Below, in pieces: positions 42,963-50,196 of a DNA stretch of 64,000 bases. The notes beneath the pieces are model-generated. The model did not search any database. It saw nothing but the letters and a program-made list of their open reading frames with translations, and was not told where the DNA came from. A program made the position numbers and the translations under genes. Position 1 is the stretch's first letter, and each line of letters starts with the position of its first letter. This DNA is from Candidatus Magasanikbacteria bacterium RIFOXYC2_FULL_42_28 (GTDB lineage: Bacteria > Patescibacteriota > Patescibacteriia > Magasanikbacterales > GWA2-37-8), in the NCBI GenBank assembly GCA_001784435.1, contig MFQZ01000010.1, positions 105,960 to 169,959 of the forward strand. Direction: 5' to 3'.

Positions 42963-44612
42963 ATGGCCAAACAAATACTATACTCGGAAGACGCTCGCCA
43001 CAAATTGTTGCGCGGCGTGGACACTTTGGCAAATGCTGTCAAAGTCACTTTGGGCCCCAAGGGTCGTAATGTGGTTTTGGATAAGGGCTATGGCGCGCCG
43101 ACGATTACGAAAGATGGCGTTACCGTTGCGAAAGAAATTGAAGTGGAAGATAAATTTGAAAATGCTGGTGTTGAGTTAGTAAAAGAAGTTGCCAGCAAAA
43201 CCAATGATGATGTCGGCGATGGCACTACTACTGCCACCGTTTTGGCGCAAGCCATCGCGCGCGAAGGCGTAAAAAATGTTACTGCTGGCGCGAATCCGGT
43301 CGCTTTGAAGCGCGGGATTGATAAATGCGTGGAAGCGATTGTCGCGGAATTAAAAAATAATATTAGTAAGCCGGTTACTGATGACGAAATTTCTAATGTC
43401 GCCGCGATTTCCGCCAATGACAAAGAAATCGGTGCCAAAATCGCCCAAGCCATGAAAGCGGTGGGCAAAGATGGTGTGATTACCGTGGAAGAATCGCAAT
43501 CGTTTGGTATGGAAATTGAAACCGTCCAAGGTATGCGTTTTGACAAGGGTTATGTTTCGCCTTACATGGTTACCAATTCCGACCGCATGGAATCAGAATA
43601 TGCTGAACCATATATTTTAATTACTGATAAAAAGGTTTCGTCTATTCATGATGTTTTGCCACTTTTAGAGAAAATTGCCCAAGGTGGTAAAAAAGAATTG
43701 GTAATTATTGCTGAAGATGTTGATGGCGAAGCGCTCGCGACTTTTGTCGTGAATAAATTACGCGGGTCTTTCAATGTCTTGGCGGTTAAAGCGCCTGGTT
43801 TTGGTGATCGTCGCAAAGAAATGTTGCAAGACATCGCGGTTTTGACCGGCGGCACTTTAATTACCGAAGAAGTTGGTCGCAAATTAGACAGCGCCACGAT
43901 TGAAGATTTGGGTCGTGCGCACAAAGTCATTGCCACCAAAGAATATACCACGATTGTCAGTGGTCAAGGCGACGCGCAAAAAATTAAAGATCGCGTGGCG
44001 CAAATCAGAAAAGCGATTGAACAAACCGATTCTGATTTTGATAAAGAAAAATTGCAAGAACGCTTGGCCAAATTAGCCGGCGGTGTCGCCATCATCAAAG
44101 TGGGCGCCGCGACCGAAACGGAAATGAAAGAAGTCAAACATCGCATTGAAGACGCGGTGGGCGCGACCAAAGCCGCGGTTGAAGAAGGTGTGGTGGCTGG
44201 CGGTGGCGTGGCCTTGCTGCGCTCGATCAAAGCGCTTGCCGGTTTGAAATTAGAACACGAAGAAGCCGTGGCGATAAATATTTTACGCCGCGCGTTAGAA
44301 GAACCGGTCCGCCAAATTGCGCAAAATGCTGGCGTTGATGGCGCTGTCGTTGCCGAAGAAGTCAAACGCCGTGAAGGTAATGTCGGTTATAACGCCACTA
44401 CGGGCGAATACGAAGATTTAGTCAAAGCCGGTATTATCGACCCGACTAAAGTTACCCGCACGGCTTTGCAAAATGCCGCGTCTATCGCTGGAATGTTGCT
44501 TACGACAGAAGCAGTCATCACCGATATTCCAAAAAAAGATGAACCCGCGATGCCAGGAGGTATGGGTGGTGGAATGGGCGGTATGGGCGGAGGTATGGGT
44601 GGAATGTATTAA
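42963..44612 (+). CDS. groEL: chaperonin GroEL
   Basis: [39 protein letters not shown]; GGM C-terminal repeats. Confidence 0.95.
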
Positions 44613-44665
44613 AAAATGTAAAATGTAAATATCAAAAATCAAAATTAGCGAGTTTTCCGTTCGTT

Positions 44666-44708
44666 GTCTCCCCCTGCCCGAGGGGGAGAATAAGAGGGGG
44701 TGGGAGCG
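44666..44708. repeat. family C repeat downstream of groEL
   Basis: ccccctgcccgagggggagaataagagggggtgggagcgg. Confidence 0.7.
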
Positions 44709-44730
44709 GATTCTTTATTCGCACAACCAC

Positions 44731-44764
44731 AAAAATAATCGACCGCTCGGTCGGTTATTTTTTT
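44731..44764 (+). terminator. conserved terminator module T (aaaaataatcgaccgctcggtcggttatttttt), copy 1
   Basis: Perfect hairpin plus T-run; identical copies at 46498 and 47715; degenerate copy at 50138. Confidence 0.7.
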
Positions 44765-44803
44765 GTTTGCCTTGCAAGGCCATAGCCCGCAGGGCGACGG
44801 CTT

Positions 44804-44849
44804 GTGGATAACTTTATTTGCCAAATACGGTCGGGGGGGGGGGTATACT
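44804..44849 (+). promoter_or_regulatory. conserved promoter module copy 2: TGTGGATAA - TTGCCA - 20 nt spacer ending in G11 - TATACT
   Basis: G-run at 44833-44843. Confidence 0.45.
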
Positions 44850-44884
44850 TAATTACGAGAGAATTTATTATTAATTATAAAATT

Positions 44885-45814
44885 ATGCCAGAAATAAAAG
44901 CGGGTTACATTCCGCAGGAGTCACGTGGGTCGTCTGAATTAGAACAACAGGCAATTGTGGACAGCGCGACAGATTTGATATTAAAAACATTGAATAGGCA
45001 CCTTGATAAAGATCATGCGCCAAAAATACCTGATCAAGAGAAAATAAAGAAAGCATTAATTTTGTTAATGGCGGGAAAAAATGTACATAATGAAATAACG
45101 ATTCCAACAACTACAGAAAGCAGAGGACGTTTTGATGGCGCGAACTCTGCCAAATGGTATCCAAATGTATTGGTGGCTCTACATGAAGCAGTAGGTGACA
45201 AACCAAGACGATTGACAATTCAATTCAATCATCAGTCCGACGCAGAAGAGTCGGAGGAAGTCTGTGCTAGACATATTAGTGGTGCCCGGCCGATGGATAA
45301 GCCAATAATACAATCAATAGTTATTCCACCATCATATTCCAAAGAGGAAAAGACAATAATGACTAGTCGACGCAAGTCAGCTGTTAGTTTAGAAGATAGT
45401 GGTGCTGTGCCCGTCCAAGATGTCGGAGCGGATAAGCGGCGCTTAGAAGTAACTCGTTCGCAAGTTGAAAAGGCGCGTGGGGAGATGTTTAAAGATATTG
45501 GTACAAGCGAAGATGGTTCAAGGGGTTATTTTTCAGAGTATATTGGACCTGATCGTGATAGTATGAGTAAAGGCAAAATATTGTCTAAGCGAGACAGACA
45601 ATATGTCGCCAAATTGTCAGAAATTAGCGGAAAATTACTAGAGTTAGATAAAGTAATTGATAGCAAGTCGAGTGCTAGCGCGGTGAAGAAGGCGGAAGCT
45701 AAACATTTGAAATTAAGGCAAGAGGCCCGGATTATTATCGATAATTATGATCAAGAAGATCGCCATGCCTTCGAAAATGGTATGGCTGGGGTTCGGCCCA
45801 CAGTCGAATATTAA
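44885..45814 (+). CDS. hypothetical protein (cargo gene behind module 2)
   Basis: ATG 44885 (MPEIKAGY) about 35 nt after the -10 box; hydrophilic, no motif. Confidence 0.45.
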   Translation: MPEIKAGYIPQESRGSSELEQQAIVDSATDLILKTLNRHLDKDHAPKIPDQEKIKKALILLMAGKNVHNEITIPTTTESRGRFDGANSAKWYPNVLVALHEAVGDKPRRLTIQFNHQSDAEESEEVCARHISGARPMDKPIIQSIVIPPSYSKEEKTIMTSRRKSAVSLEDSGAVPVQDVGADKRRLEVTRSQVEKARGEMFKDIGTSEDGSRGYFSEYIGPDRDSMSKGKILSKRDRQYVAKLSEISGKLLELDKVIDSKSSASAVKKAEAKHLKLRQEARIIIDNYDQEDRHAFENGMAGVRPTVEY

Positions 45815-46006
45815 AACAGTATAATTGATTTATAAAAACGGATTTAAATATCCGTTTTTTAGTTAAAAAATGTATGAGTTGTATTAGCTATTTCGTGATT
45901 AGGGATTTTAATCTTTTGATTTTATTGGGTTCTTGACAAAAAGTAAGAAATATGATACAATAAGAATGTAGTAAAGTAATACTTTCTTACTCATCAATTT
46001 TATTTT

Positions 46007-48396: not shown

Positions 48397-48451
48397 TGTT
48401 TGCCGACAAGAAGTTTAAAATAAAGTTTCAATAATTATTAAGAAGAATCCC

Positions 48452-48496
48452 GTTAACTCGGGATTCTTTGATTTTATTTCGTTTATATAGTACAAT
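48452..48496 (+). promoter_or_regulatory. class-2 module: hairpin gaatcccgttaactcgggattc + TTGATT - 17 nt - TACAAT
   Basis: Similar modules at 50138-50196 and 52058-52109 with a conserved ctttgattttatt..tatagtaYaat. Confidence 0.45.
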
Positions 48497-48585
48497 TACT
48501 TTCGCGTAAGTATTGACAAATAAATAATTTGGTGTTATAATTCTAATACAAATATGCGTAAATTTGTATTAAATTCTATACAAAT

Positions 48586-49776
48586 ATGTTAAAAAGAGTA
48601 CTTTTTTATGATATTTTAGGGCAAATTGACCATAAAAATGCTTTGGTAGTTACCGGTATGCGCCAAGTGGGCAAAACCACCCTAATGAAGCAAATTTTTG
48701 AGGAAATTGGCCAAGATAAGTCAAAATTATGGTTTGATTTTGAAAATCCGCTGGATATGAAGGTTTTTGAGGATATTGATTACAATGTCATCTATACTCG
48801 TCTGGCGCAAATGGCTGGTAATACTAAAAATCGGTTGTATATTTTTATTGATGAAATTCAGAATTTCCCGGAAATCACCAAAATCATAAAATATTTAATT
48901 GATCATTATGGCGTGAAGTTTTTAGTAACCGGATCGTCTAATTTTTATTTGAAAAATTTATTTCCAGAAAGTTTGAGTGGACGAAAATTTTTGCATGATT
49001 TGTCACCGTTAAGTTTTAAAGAATTTTTATATTTTCACGATCAAATTTCTTTGGACGATGCCAAACGAAATGATTTGGTATCAATGCTTCATTCGCACGC
49101 GCTCATAGAAATTAAAAAATTTGAACCATATTATGATAACTATTTGCGTTATGGTGGTTTTCCCGAAGTGGCGATGGAGGTGGACAATGAATTAAAAAAA
49201 GAAATTCTTAAAAATATTTTTAAGTCATTTTTTGAAAAGGATTTAAAAATTCTCTCCGACCACAAAGATATTCGCGAATTACGTGATTTGCTTTTACTTT
49301 TAGTGCCACGAGTTGGCTCGATGTTGGATATTTCCAAAGTTGCAAGTGAGTTGGGGGTAGAACGCGCAAAAATTTATAGTTATTTGGAATTTTTACAAGG
49401 CACTTTTATGATTCGTCTTTTGCCGAAATTTTCGAAAAGTATCGATCGTGCTGTTGCTGGTGGGAAAAAAGTATATTTTTCTGATAATGGATTACTGGGC
49501 GCGATCGGCTCCGTGAATGACGCGCAATTATTGGAAAACGCTGTTGTTAATCAATTGGCAAATTATGGCGATTTAAGTTTTTATAATAAACGTAACACCG
49601 CGGAGATTGATGTGATTTATAATAAAAAAATTGCTATAGAAATCAAAGCATCCGGATCAGAGTCTGATCGGCGAAAATTAACCGAATTGTCGGGTAGTTT
49701 GGGGATTAAACAGAATTATATTATTTCTAAAAATTTTGTTGAGAAAGATGGTTTTGTTTCGCCGGCGCAGTTGTAG
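48586..49776 (+). CDS. AAA+ ATPase of the COG1373 type (AAA_14 + DUF4143-like)
   Basis: P-loop [12 protein letters not shown]; Walker [10 protein letters not shown]; 3' end fused to the groEL-tail duplicate. Confidence 0.6.
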
Positions 49777-50030
49777 CCGAAGAAGTCAAACGTCGTGAAG
49801 GCAATGTCGGCTATAACGCCGCGACTGGTGAATACGAGGACTTGGTCAAAGCCGGTATTATTGACCCGACAAAAGTAACACGTACAGCCTTGCAAAATGC
49901 CGCGTCAATTGCCGGAATGTTGCTCACTACCGAAGTCGTTATCACCGATATTCCAAAAAAAGATGAACTGGCGATGCCGGGTGGTGGTATGTCGGGAGGA
50001 ATGGGTGGTATGGGTGGAATGTATTAAATG
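49777..50030 (+). pseudogene. duplicated 3' fragment of groEL (about 85% nucleotide identity to 44350-44612)
   Basis: Encodes ..[83 protein letters not shown]; differences mostly synonymous. Confidence 0.8.
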
Positions 50031-50079
50031 GTGGTATGCTTGCCCGCCTCTGGCGGGGGGGATGTATTAAAACACCATC

Positions 50080-50124
50080 TGTCATTCCGAGCGAGGCCAA
50101 AGGCCGACGAGGAATCTCTGTCTA
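50080..50124. repeat. family A repeat (tgtcattccgagcgaggccaaaggccgacgaggaatctctgtcta)
   Basis: Follows the groEL-tail duplicate, like the repeats after the real groEL. Confidence 0.7.
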
Positions 50125-50137
50125 CACACACAACCAT

Positions 50138-50196
50138 AAAAATAATCGACCGCTCTGGTTCGTTCTTTTGATTTTATTTAGATGGTATAGTATAAT
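50138..50196 (+). promoter_or_regulatory. degenerate terminator T copy + class-2 promoter (TTGATT - 17 nt - TATAAT)
   Basis: aaaaataatcgaccgctctggttcgttcttttgattttatttagatggtatagtataat. Confidence 0.45.

What the first reader, a model, noticed from the sequence alone, without database searches (positions are those of the whole stretch)
44330..50170. Island of about 5 kb inserted in the 3' end of groEL, bounded by a diverged duplicate of the groEL tail
groEL ends at 44612 and is followed by a family C repeat and the T hairpin. At 49757-50030 the last ~275 bp of groEL recur, mostly as synonymous changes (about 85% identity estimated by eye, not a computed alignment). That copy is again followed by a C-like repeat, a family A repeat and a degenerate T hairpin. 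The duplicate begins inside the last codons of the AAA+ ATPase gene. Between the two copies lie three cargo genes behind G-tract promoters, two AbrB-RelE toxin-antitoxin modules and the COG1373-type ATPase. This pattern is typical of an integrative element that targets the 3' end of a conserved gene and brings its own replacement end, but no integrase is present in the island.
Basis: seen in the sequence. Interest (0 to 1): 0.75.

Follow-up and report, generated by a model that had tools for sequence, protein, structure and literature searches.

The report
Recombination scar: orphan groEL tail
The second copy of the groEL gene's end is real, but it is most likely a leftover from sloppy recombination with DNA of a closely related bacterium, in a stretch of chromosome that is reshuffled in every related lineage, and not the border of a self-inserting mobile element.

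Summary
The window comes from Candidatus Magasanikbacteria RIFOXYC2_FULL_42_28. The sequence at 49764-50027 repeats groEL codons 460-549, and its flank repeats the first half of the groEL terminator up to 50155. Identity is 85% over 216 ungapped bases. Of 32 differences, 29 are at third codon positions (dN 0.019, dS 0.99), so this copy evolved inside a working groEL of a close relative.

The integrative-element reading is not supported:
- No recombinase was found in the island or in the rest of the window that was screened.
- The ATPase at the island's right end is complete. In two other Magasanikbacteria its relatives sit in the same place, between groEL and the Sm_multidrug_ex/prfB genes.
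- A sister genome has groEL, the T hairpin and the same toxin-antitoxin pair in the same place, with no second tail.
- None of six other lineages carries a second groEL piece.

The left junction is a 13-base overlap (GGCGCAGTTGTAG) that belongs both to the intact ATPase end and to groEL. This is a microhomology joint. The right end lies inside a chimeric terminator. The slot between groEL and prfB holds different genes in every lineage, and groEL itself shows recombination tracts. The best explanation is a scar of illegitimate recombination, most likely the homology-facilitated kind. This is of modest interest.

The parts
42963..44612 (+). Complete groEL gene (549 aa).
   Evidence: ORF. It is 100% identical to GroEL of Ca. 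Magasanikbacteria RIFOXYC2_FULL_42_28. Its third-position mosaic against L014 points to recombination tracts.
44340..44748 (+). Copy 1 of the repeat: groEL codons 460-549, about 110 nt of flank (C repeat) and the first half of the T terminator.
   Evidence: Alignments; blastn. This flank is shared with the sister genome L009 at about 87%.
44730..44764 (+). T hairpin, the groEL terminator. Identical copies lie at 46498-46532 and 47714-47748.
   Evidence: three exact copies, 0 expected by chance. It folds at -19.1 kcal/mol, z -6.6. The sister genome has it with one mismatch.
44803..44849 (+). G-tract promoter module 1 (TGTGGATAAC..TTGCCA-N9-G11-TATACT). Sister copies lie at 46536-46580 and 47786-47830, and a fourth at 23081-23125.
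44885..45814 (+). Cargo gene 1 (309 aa), an orphan gene and a distant paralogue of cargo gene 3. The cassette 44774-45928 is absent from the sister genome.
   Evidence: No Pfam, PADLOC or PHROG hit. Apart from itself, the only hit among 1.84 billion representatives was one 43-aa fragment. 31% identity to cargo 3 over 128 aa, E 6e-8. Absence from the sister.
46007..46487 (+). Toxin-antitoxin pair 1: AbrB/MazE-like antitoxin (78 aa) and ParE/RelE-like toxin (80 aa). It is syntenic with the pair that follows groEL in the sister genome.
   Evidence: Pfam hits just below threshold. PHROG RelE-like, E 8e-9. 89-92% nt identity to L009 11940-12440.
46629..47243 (+). Cargo gene 2 (204 aa, DUF4116).
   Evidence: Separate contigs from four samples confirm its neighbours.
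47310..47703 (+). Toxin-antitoxin pair 2. The antitoxin lacks its N-terminal DNA-binding part (49 aa left). This marks a second illegitimate junction at about 47300-47312.
   Evidence: The two toxins differ by dS 0.17, but the antitoxin 3' parts differ by dS 1.03, so the pair is a mosaic.
47863..48396 (+). Cargo gene 3 (177 aa), an orphan gene, with its terminator at 48442-48469.
48586..49776 (+). AAA_14/DUF4143 ATPase (396 aa), complete through its own TAG stop. It is a resident of this slot, not element cargo.
   Evidence: Pfam. PADLOC candidate defence family PDC-S01, E 7e-59. Its C-terminus aligns to the last residue of 11 homologues. Relatives lie between groEL and Sm_multidrug_ex in L015 and L019-L022. 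The L015 gene ends caa tta tag.
49764..49776 (+). Left junction: 13 nt, GGCGCAGTTGTAG. It reads as ..(P)AQL* in the ATPase frame and as G-A-V-V-(A) in the groEL frame. It is a microhomology joint.
   Evidence: It matches the sister groEL allele GGCGCGGTTGTAG at 12 of 13 positions. The chance of that at a fixed register is 6e-7.
49764..50027 (+). Orphan groEL tail (codons 460 to stop of another allele). It is a pseudogene fragment with an open frame.
50028..50128 (+). Flank of the orphan tail. It holds a small GC-rich hairpin element (50032-50069) followed by a repeat of GGATGTATTAAA, then an 'A' repeat (50080-50118).
   Evidence: The same hairpin insertion sits at the stop codon of the full groEL in contig L008. 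Fold. The A repeat also occurs at 56255-56294.
50129..50178 (+). T', a chimeric terminator. The first half is T (96% to 44722-44748). The second half (50156-50178) matches 22 of 23 nt of the terminator upstream of Sm_multidrug_ex (52070-52091). This is the right end of the relic.
   Evidence: It no longer folds well (-4.4 kcal/mol, z -0.4).
50235..51901 (+). Three orphan ORFs (223, 213 and 124 aa) between the relic and Sm_multidrug_ex.
   Evidence: The 223-aa protein has no homologue in 5.8 billion proteins. There is no counterpart in the sister genome.
52119..53784 (+). Sm_multidrug_ex gene and the peptide-chain release factor gene (called prfB here from its PCRF/RF-1 domains). This is the conserved right border of the variable slot.

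Best explanation
The second groEL tail is a non-functional 392-nt relic (49764-50155). It consists of the last 88 codons, the 3' flank and half the terminator of a different groEL allele. That allele belonged to a bacterium of the same narrow Magasanikbacteria clade.

The relic was joined to the chromosome by illegitimate recombination. On its left the joint lies in a 13-nt microhomology with the intact end of the resident ATPase gene. On its right it lies inside a terminator hairpin.

The event happened in the slot between groEL and Sm_multidrug_ex/prfB, a recombination hot spot whose gene content differs in every lineage examined.

The most likely route is homology-facilitated illegitimate recombination (HFIR) after DNA uptake. 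In that route a linear fragment from a relative pairs with groEL, which acts as the homologous anchor, and its other end is joined illegitimately. The donor's groEL end and slot genes then lie upstream of the recipient's displaced groEL tail. A second junction of the same kind (the 5'-truncated antitoxin at about 47310) suggests that haplotype segments were stacked repeatedly.

Shown:
- the duplication and its synonymous divergence;
- the intact ATPase end and the overlap;
- the synteny of the ATPase and of the toxin-antitoxin pair in relatives;
- the variability of the slot;
- the mosaic structure of groEL.

Inferred:
- the direction of transfer;
- transformation as the route of entry;
- whether one long fragment (HFIR) or a short captured patch (double illegitimate joining) made the scar.
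For: 1. Divergence between the copies is almost purely synonymous: 29 of 32 differences are at third positions, dN/dS about 0.02, dS 0.99. Both tails therefore evolved inside working groEL genes. The copy is not an in-place duplication.

2. The copy carries the motif [40 protein letters not shown]. Among the 38 best GroEL hits whose sequences I read, only the five closest (the window's own and four more) have it, or a version one residue different. Its flank has the same hairpin insertion at the stop codon as a full-length groEL in contig L008. It is therefore a real groEL 3' end from a close relative.

3. The ATPase C-terminus ..GFVSPAQL* aligns to the last residue of 11 homologues, and the L015 orthologue ends ..caa tta tag. 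The groEL homology starts 13 nt before that stop. The overlap GGCGCAGTTGTAG matches the sister groEL allele at 12 of 13 positions, with a chance of about 6e-7. HFIR junctions usually carry 3-10 bp of microhomology (PMC3240628).

4. The right end of the relic is a hybrid of two terminators.

5. The slot is hypervariable:
- L015: ATPase only.
- L019: three genes plus the ATPase.
- L009: toxin-antitoxin pair plus a 636-aa gene.
- L023: Cache and VTT genes.
- L025: Gmad2 and VTT genes.
- L028: CARDB genes.
The flanks (groES-groEL on one side, Sm_multidrug_ex-prfB-Sua5 on the other) are conserved in all of these except L028, where neither Sm_multidrug_ex nor prfB appears within the 10 kb fetched downstream of groEL.

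6. Homologous exchange in groEL is visible. Against L014, 0 of 40 third positions differ in codons 221-260 (permutation 1 of 300). A database variant, P0002, equals the window's GroEL except for a patch at residues 412-449 that holds 14 of its 15 differences. Contigs L008 and L009 have identical groEL for 1560 nt and then differ from the GGM tail onward.

7. Against the sister genome, dS is 0.4-0.7 for groEL and the toxin-antitoxin pair but 1.4-2.2 for NusA, groES, Sm_multidrug_ex and RrnaAD. This segment was therefore exchanged more recently than the genomes split.

8. A ComEC-type gene lies at 34719-36272. Natural competence has been shown in Patescibacteria of the Saccharibacteria group (PMC10633639).

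9. No recombinase was found, and no other lineage has a second groEL piece.
Against: - No parental haplotype was found. No contig shows a full groEL followed by the relic's flank and the 223-aa gene. That gene is an orphan, and the metagenome scans returned nothing new: the protein scan found nothing, and the T-hairpin scan found only the sister contig already in hand. The direction of transfer and the homologous crossover point are therefore unobserved.
- A 13-nt microhomology is somewhat longer than the 3-10 bp usually reported.
- The right end has no clear microhomology. It may come from an older, separate event.
- Competence of Magasanikbacteria is untested.
- The low dS of groEL could partly reflect codon bias.
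- A 17-nt exact match shared by the two copies (GCCGAAGAAGTCAAACG) could in principle serve as a recombinase core.
Confidence: 0.68

Rival explanations
1. Campbell-type single crossover. A fragment running from groEL codon 460 to the ATPase stop was circularised; the 13-nt microhomology joint formed at that step. The circle then integrated by one homologous crossover within the groEL tail. The result is a full groEL, the insert, and a 5'-truncated second copy.
For: It produces exactly this topology: a direct repeat of the homologous segment, with the second copy cut at the fragment's end. In E. coli, linear DNA that escapes degradation is ligated and integrated by single crossover (PMC3240628). 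The microhomology joint fits end-joining of a fragment.
Against: It does not explain why the relic's right end is a chimeric terminator. It does not explain why the ATPase and the toxin-antitoxin pair are syntenic with other lineages. A crossover in about 270 nt that is 85% identical would be inefficient. No parental sequences are available to test for the expected reciprocal mosaic.
Confidence: 0.1
2. A site-specific integrative element, now without its integrase or mobilised in trans, inserted into the 3' end of groEL and supplied a replacement end. The orphan tail would then be the displaced original end (attR).
For: There is a direct repeat of a gene's 3' end with synonymous divergence. 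A 17-nt exact stretch is shared by both copies. Toxin-antitoxin genes and a candidate defence ATPase are typical island cargo.
Against: No recombinase lies in the island or elsewhere in the window. The gene at the right end, the ATPase, occupies the same slot next to Sm_multidrug_ex in two other lineages that have no repeat. The left-end genes (T hairpin, toxin-antitoxin pair) are in place in the sister genome without a repeat. None of six other lineages has a second groEL piece. The repeat extends 13 nt into an intact neighbouring gene and ends inside a hybrid terminator. There are no matches on viral contigs.
Confidence: 0.07
3. A second complete groESL operon, acquired from a relative together with its downstream genes, once lay downstream of the ATPase. 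A later deletion between the ATPase stop and groEL codon 460, at the 13-nt microhomology, removed most of it.
For: Microhomology-mediated deletion would give the same left junction. The relic keeps an authentic groEL flank and terminator half.
Against: It needs an extra, unobserved insertion with two more junctions. None of the seven lineages examined has two groEL genes. The chimeric terminator at the relic's right end still needs a separate event.
Confidence: 0.08
4. Assembly artefact: a chimeric join of two co-occurring strains at groEL.
For: Related strains co-occur in these samples. One short contig (L030) switches between the window type and the sister type inside a 35-nt identical stretch, which shows that chimeras or recombinants exist in these data.
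Against: The junction from ATPase through the relic to the 223-aa gene is identical in the NCBI genome and in three other assemblies made with other assemblers. The shared sequence at the joint is only 13 nt, below any assembly k-mer.
Confidence: 0.02

Closest known systems
Homology-facilitated illegitimate recombination (HFIR) during natural transformation (Streptococcus pneumoniae, Acinetobacter baylyi, Pseudomonas stutzeri; summarised in PMC3240628)
   Same: One side lies in a conserved, recombining gene (groEL as anchor). The other side is an illegitimate joint with microhomology. Foreign or allelic DNA is trapped next to the anchor, and the recipient sequence is partly displaced.
   Different: This case is inferred from a natural genome of an uncultivated Patescibacterium, not observed experimentally. 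The microhomology is 13 nt rather than 3-10. The recipient segment was duplicated, not deleted. Competence and RecA dependence are untested.
Displacement of 3' ends in Rhs, CDI and T6SS effector-immunity loci (Vibrio cholerae orphan immunity arrays, PMC5361080; Rhs C-terminal displacement cited there)
   Same: Incoming DNA that shares the conserved upstream part replaces the resident 3' region and pushes the old 3' end downstream as an orphan fragment. Repeated events build arrays. HFIR is the proposed mechanism.
   Different: Here the conserved gene is a housekeeping chaperonin whose two tails encode nearly the same peptide (3 substitutions in the 72 ungapped codons compared, plus a 3-residue shorter and partly different GGM repeat). 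There is no toxin or immunity logic, and no sign that the orphan tail is selected.
Integrative islands and prophages that insert into the 3' end of a gene and restore it (attL/attR direct repeats)
   Same: There is a direct repeat of a gene's 3' end flanking accessory genes, and the gene stays intact.
   Different: There is no recombinase. The repeat is 392 nt long and only about 85% identical. Its ends lie in an intact neighbouring gene and in a hybrid terminator. The contents are syntenic with genomes that lack the repeat, and the target is not reused.

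Membership tests
Site-specific integrative element (tyrosine or serine recombinase island or prophage) | A recombinase gene inside the element, usually next to one att site. | tested here: not met
   Pfam scans of the island ORFs that were submitted (the 124-aa ORF at 51527-51901 was not) and of 20 ORFs at 1-31 kb, plus precomputed Pfam tables for the flanks. 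No integrase, resolvase or transposase domain was found.
Site-specific integrative element (tyrosine or serine recombinase island or prophage) | attL and attR are short direct repeats with an identical core at the exact borders of the element. | tested here: inconclusive
   A 17-nt exact stretch is shared. However, the repeat is 392 nt at about 85% identity. It begins 13 nt inside the intact ATPase gene and ends inside a hybrid terminator.
Site-specific integrative element (tyrosine or serine recombinase island or prophage) | The bounded segment is present or absent as a unit (an empty site exists in relatives). | tested here: not met
   The sister genome keeps the T hairpin and the toxin-antitoxin pair after groEL. 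Other lineages keep the ATPase next to Sm_multidrug_ex. No empty site was found.
Site-specific integrative element (tyrosine or serine recombinase island or prophage) | The same target site is used repeatedly in other genomes. | tested here: not met
   tblastn of GroEL against all fetched loci: only the window strain has a second fragment, and none of six other lineages does.
HFIR product | An illegitimate junction with short microhomology. | tested here: met
   The 13-nt overlap at 49764-49776 is shared by the native ATPase end and groEL. It matches the sister allele at 12 of 13 positions, chance about 6e-7.
HFIR product | A homologous anchor next to the insert, with signs of recombination in it. 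| tested here: met
   The groEL third-position mosaic, the P0002 patch at residues 412-449, and L008 and L009 being identical for 1560 nt and then diverging. The actual crossover of this event was not located.
HFIR product | One copy is of foreign or allelic origin. | tested here: met
   dS is 0.99 between the copies with dN/dS about 0.02. The clade-specific peptide motif is present.
HFIR product | DNA uptake by natural transformation, and dependence on RecA. | not testable with these tools
   Only a ComEC-type gene is seen, at 34719-36272. Competence is shown for Saccharibacteria (PMC10633639), not for Magasanikbacteria.
Rhs/CDI/T6SS-type 3'-end displacement arrays | A variable 3' region encoding a toxin domain, followed by a cognate immunity gene. 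| tested here: not met
   The two tails encode the same GroEL C-terminus apart from 3 substitutions and the GGM repeat. The downstream ORFs have no toxin or immunity hits.
Type II toxin-antitoxin (ParE/RelE with AbrB/MazE-type antitoxin) | An adjacent small antitoxin and toxin with family domains. | tested here: inconclusive
   MazE_antitoxin 20.9 bits (cut-off 24.7). ParE_toxin 21.4 and 23.5 bits (cut-off 23). PHROG RelE-like E 8e-9. The layout of 78 aa and 80 aa with a 1-nt gap fits. The second copy has a truncated antitoxin.

The most novel reading that the evidence does not exclude
The slot between groEL and prfB in Magasanikbacteria may be an integrase-free cassette-exchange locus. Orphan genes would be carried as terminator-promoter-gene cassettes, and the conserved linkers would serve as joints for recombination between haplotypes. 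One linker is the 35-nt T hairpin, identical in three copies. The other is a promoter with a TGTGGATAA box and a poly-G spacer. The poly-G spacer would make each cassette phase-variable: G8 gives a 17-nt spacer in L019, while G10-11 gives 19-20 nt here. On this reading the orphan groEL tail would be a by-product of a regular diversification mechanism, not a one-off accident.
Probability: 0.15. Interest if true: 0.6.

Novelty: new member of a known kind. Interest (0 to 1): 0.3.

Why it matters
The finding removes a tempting but wrong annotation, a 'groEL-targeting integrative island'. It also gives a clean natural example of an illegitimate-recombination scar in a candidate-phyla-radiation genome, with both parental reading frames preserved across the 13-nt joint. 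Together with the groEL mosaics and the lineage-specific contents of the slot, it indicates that these small-genome, uncultivated bacteria exchange chromosomal DNA with close relatives. It also shows that the region downstream of groEL is a hot spot for gene turnover. This matters for interpreting strain variation and orphan genes in Patescibacteria, but it does not reveal a new mechanism.

Tried and rejected
- **Empty site or parental haplotype.** Exact-protein look-ups of the 223-aa gene found only contigs that already carry the ATPase-relic junction, or contigs too short to tell. The homologue search found only the protein itself. The protein-pattern scan of metagenome contigs found nothing. 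The T-hairpin pattern scan found only the sister contig.
- **Phage or mobile origin.** There were no PHROG hits except RelE, no T hairpin on viral contigs and no cargo 1 relative on viral contigs. The Rfam scan of 42-53 kb found nothing, and there is no tRNA near the locus.
- **Recombinase search.** No recombinase was found in the window.
- **Decay of the relic.** Only 2 of its 5 lineage-specific changes are non-synonymous, the same as for a functional allele. The relic is too short or too young to date.
- **Homology between the sister's 636-aa gene and the three ORFs after the relic.** None was found.
- **Cargo 1 family search.** Among 1.84 billion representatives the only hits were the protein itself and one 43-aa fragment.
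- **In-place tandem duplication.** Rejected because dS between the copies is about 1.
- **Assembly artefact.** Rejected because four assemblies agree and only 13 nt are shared at the joint.

Full report
**Source and observation**

GroEL of the window (42963-44612) is 100% identical to the protein of Candidatus Magasanikbacteria bacterium RIFOXYC2_FULL_42_28, a Patescibacteria genome from the Rifle aquifer.

The last 273 nt of groEL (44340-44612) recur at 49764-50027. Identity is 85.2% over 216 ungapped nt, and 81-84% over the whole tail, which has one 9-nt indel in the GGM-repeat region. After about 100 unrelated bases, similarity resumes in the first half of the groEL terminator: 44722-44748 matches 50129-50155 at 96%. 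The repeated unit is therefore 392 nt (49764-50155).

tblastn finds the fragment as GroEL residues 460-529 at 96% identity.

The junction from ATPase through the fragment to the next gene is 100% identical in contigs of three other assemblies made with other assemblers. Only 13 nt are shared at the joint, so this is not an assembly artefact.

**Nature of the second tail**

Of 32 differences between the copies, 29 are at third codon positions (dN 0.019, dS 0.99). The divergence built up while both tails were parts of functional groEL genes. This excludes a duplication in place.

The fragment carries a peptide motif (..[40 protein letters not shown]..). Among the 38 best GroEL hits whose sequences I read, only the five closest (the window's own and four more) have it, or a version one residue different.

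Its 3' flank contains a small GC-rich hairpin inserted at the stop codon, followed by a repeat of GGATGTATTAAA. The same insertion is seen behind a full-length groEL in contig L008.

The fragment is thus an authentic groEL 3' end from a close relative. It shows no measurable decay yet.

**Anatomy between the copies**

| Coordinates | Feature |
|---|---|
| to 44612 | groEL, then the C repeat |
| 44730 | T hairpin |
| 44803 | G-tract promoter |
| 44885-45814 | cargo 1 and its terminator |
| 46007-46487 | toxin-antitoxin pair 1 |
| 46498 | T hairpin, then G-tract promoter |
| 46629-47243 | cargo 2 (DUF4116) |
| 47310-47703 | 5'-truncated antitoxin and toxin 2 |
| 47714 | T hairpin, then G-tract promoter |
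| 47863-48396 | cargo 3 and its terminator |
| 48586-49776 | ATPase |
| 49764-50155 | orphan tail with its flank |
| 50235-51901 | three orphan ORFs |
| 52119 onward | Sm_multidrug_ex, then prfB |

The name prfB is mine, from the PCRF/RF-1 domains; I did not separate it from prfA.

Cargo 1 and cargo 3 are distant paralogues. Apart from itself, cargo 1's only hit among 1.84 billion representatives was a 43-aa fragment. The 223-aa protein has no homologue among 5.8 billion proteins.

**Comparison with relatives**

The backbone NusA-YidC-..-groES-groEL-[slot]-Sm_multidrug_ex-prfB-Sua5 is conserved in five of the six other Magasanikbacteria lineages. In L028 neither Sm_multidrug_ex nor prfB appears within the 10 kb fetched downstream of groEL. 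The slot differs in every one:

| Lineage | Slot contents |
|---|---|
| L009 (sister, RIFOXYD2_FULL_41_14) | toxin-antitoxin pair and a 636-aa gene |
| L015 | only the ATPase |
| L019-L022 | three genes and the ATPase |
| L023 | Cache and VTT genes |
| L025 | Gmad2 and VTT genes |
| L028 | CARDB genes and more |

Two points undo the idea of a unitary island.

First, the sister has groEL, the C repeat, the T hairpin and the same toxin-antitoxin pair (87-92% nt identity) at the same place, with no second tail. The left part of the 'island' is therefore shared synteny. Only the cargo 1 cassette (44774-45928) is extra there.

Second, relatives of the ATPase (68-73% aa identity) lie at the right end of the slot, directly before Sm_multidrug_ex, in L015 and L019-L022. 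The ATPase is therefore a resident of the slot. Relative to those genomes, what is inserted is the orphan tail plus the three ORFs to its right.

No other lineage has a second groEL fragment.

**The junctions**

The ATPase is complete. Its C-terminus ..GFVSPAQL aligns to the very last residue of 11 homologues of 394-397 aa. The L015 orthologue ends ..tct cca acc caa tta tag, against ..tcg ccg gcg cag ttg tag here.

The groEL homology begins at 49764, 13 nt before that stop. The sequence GGCGCAGTTGTAG reads as (P)AQL* in one frame and as GAVV(A) of GroEL in another. It matches the sister groEL allele GGCGCGGTTGTAG at 12 of 13 positions. The chance of this at a fixed register is about 6e-7. It is therefore a microhomology joint.

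The right end of the relic is a hybrid terminator. The 5' half of T is fused to TGGTTCGTTCTTTTGATTTTATT. That sequence matches 22 of 23 nt of the 3' half of the terminator upstream of Sm_multidrug_ex. The hybrid no longer folds.

A further illegitimate junction cuts the second antitoxin at about 47310. The two toxin genes differ by dS 0.17 while the adjacent antitoxin parts differ by dS 1.03, which is another mosaic.

**Evidence for homologous exchange in and around groEL**

- Against L014, codons 221-260 have 0 of 40 third-position differences (permutation 1 of 300).
- The database variant P0002 equals the window's GroEL except for a patch at residues 412-449, which holds 14 of its 15 differences.
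- L008 and L009 are identical for 1560 nt of groEL and differ from the GGM tail onward.
- Against the sister, dS is 0.70 for groEL and 0.38-0.58 for the toxin-antitoxin pair, but 1.4-2.2 for NusA, groES, Sm_multidrug_ex and RrnaAD.

**Mechanism**

The pattern has three elements: a conserved, recombining anchor gene; trapped allelic DNA; and an illegitimate joint at a microhomology. This is the pattern described for homology-facilitated illegitimate recombination in naturally transformable bacteria, where junctions usually show 3-10 bp of microhomology (PMC3240628).

The same logic has been proposed for the displaced 3' ends and orphan genes in Rhs and T6SS loci (PMC5361080).

A ComEC-type gene lies at 34719-36272, and natural competence has been shown for Saccharibacteria (PMC10633639).

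I cannot tell whether one long donor fragment replaced the slot contents and left the recipient's tail, or whether a short 392-nt patch was captured between two illegitimate joints. I also cannot tell which tail is the incomer, because no parental haplotype was found.

Campbell-type integration of a circularised fragment remains possible, as does a lost second groESL operon. Both are less parsimonious.

**Against the integrative-element model**

- No recombinase was found in the island, the flanks or the rest of the window that was screened.
- There are no phage-family hits beyond RelE, and nothing on viral contigs.
- No RNA family or tRNA target is present.
- The contents are syntenic with genomes that lack the repeat, and the target is not reused.
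- The 17-nt exact stretch shared by the copies is the only feature that could pass for a core.

**Verdict**

The mechanism and the 'island' concept are not supported. The feature is an ordinary, though unusually legible, recombination scar in a hypervariable slot. Interest is modest (0.3).

The more interesting lead is the cassette-like organisation of the slot, with identical terminators and poly-G promoters. I only noted it in passing.

Noticed in passing
window 44803-44849, 46536-46580, 47786-47830, 23081-23125; L019 9500-9560: Promoters share the form TGTGGATAAC-N5-TTGCCA/TTGACA-N9-G(n)-TATACT. The spacer between the hexamers is 9+n. That gives 19-20 nt here (G10 or G11) but exactly 17 nt (G8) in a distant Magasanikbacterium, where the promoter sits in the same slot downstream of groEL. 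This looks like slipped-strand phase-variable promoters, all of them probably in a weak state in this genome. The consensus assemblies show no length differences. Read-level heterogeneity was not testable.
   Followed up: partly
window 19564, 23081, 42524, 44803, 47491, 56860; groES upstream 42520-42615: TGTGGATAA, the complement of the DnaA-box consensus, occurs 6 times against 0.58 expected. Sites include positions upstream of the -35 of the groES promoter and of the G-tract promoters, and upstream of the ATPase in L015. The groES leader also has a CIRCE-like operator, TTATCACTC-N9-GAGTGATAA, at 42589-42615.
   Followed up: partly
L030 (ERZ27254748 k141_1908), 1-1506: This contig is window-type for cargo 2, the truncated antitoxin and toxin 2. 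Inside a 35-nt identical stretch of the toxin gene it switches to 100% sister-type sequence (toxin end plus the upstream region of the 636-aa gene). It is either a real recombinant haplotype or an assembly chimera.
   Followed up: partly
L008 11638-11703 against L009 11620-11700; window 50032-50069: Small GC-rich hairpins (CCCGCCTCTGGCGGG and relatives) come and go in the groEL 3' flank. In L008 and in the orphan tail, one sits exactly at the stop codon with a repeat of GGATGTATTAAA. L009 has two in another position. They may be miniature mobile or REP-like elements.
   Followed up: no
window 44730-44764, 46498-46532, 47714-47748: The 35-nt T hairpin is identical in three copies, although the adjacent toxin-antitoxin copies are only 89-95% identical. 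The sister genome has it with one mismatch. This points to strong constraint or to gene conversion.
   Followed up: no
window 48586-49776: The AAA_14/DUF4143 ATPase matches the PADLOC candidate defence family PDC-S01 (E 7e-59). Its upstream region shares a conserved motif (tacaaataNgcgtaaNtttgtaNaaaatt) with the L015 orthologue.
   Followed up: no
P0002 (GroEL variant, residues 412-449): A database GroEL is identical to the window's except for a 38-residue patch, holding 14 of its 15 differences, that resembles distant Magasanikbacteria. The patch lies just upstream of residue 460, where the orphan tail begins.
   Followed up: partly
L009 16292-17617 and L023 16594-17751 (Sua5 gene); window 31669-34788 (LeuRS): In the sister genome and in L023 the Sua5/YrdC gene carries an inserted DUF559/MTES_1575 endonuclease-like domain (441 and 385 aa against 201 aa here). 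The leucyl-tRNA synthetase of these genomes carries inserted hydrolase-like (Abhydrolase/Ser_hydrolase) and, in the sister, NUDIX domains (gene tables).
   Followed up: no
window 23164-25473: A second small variable-looking region lies between truB and infB. It holds a G-tract promoter, two orphan ORFs (164 and 195 aa) and a Bro-N protein. A Bro-N gene also sits in the slot downstream of groEL in L019.
   Followed up: no
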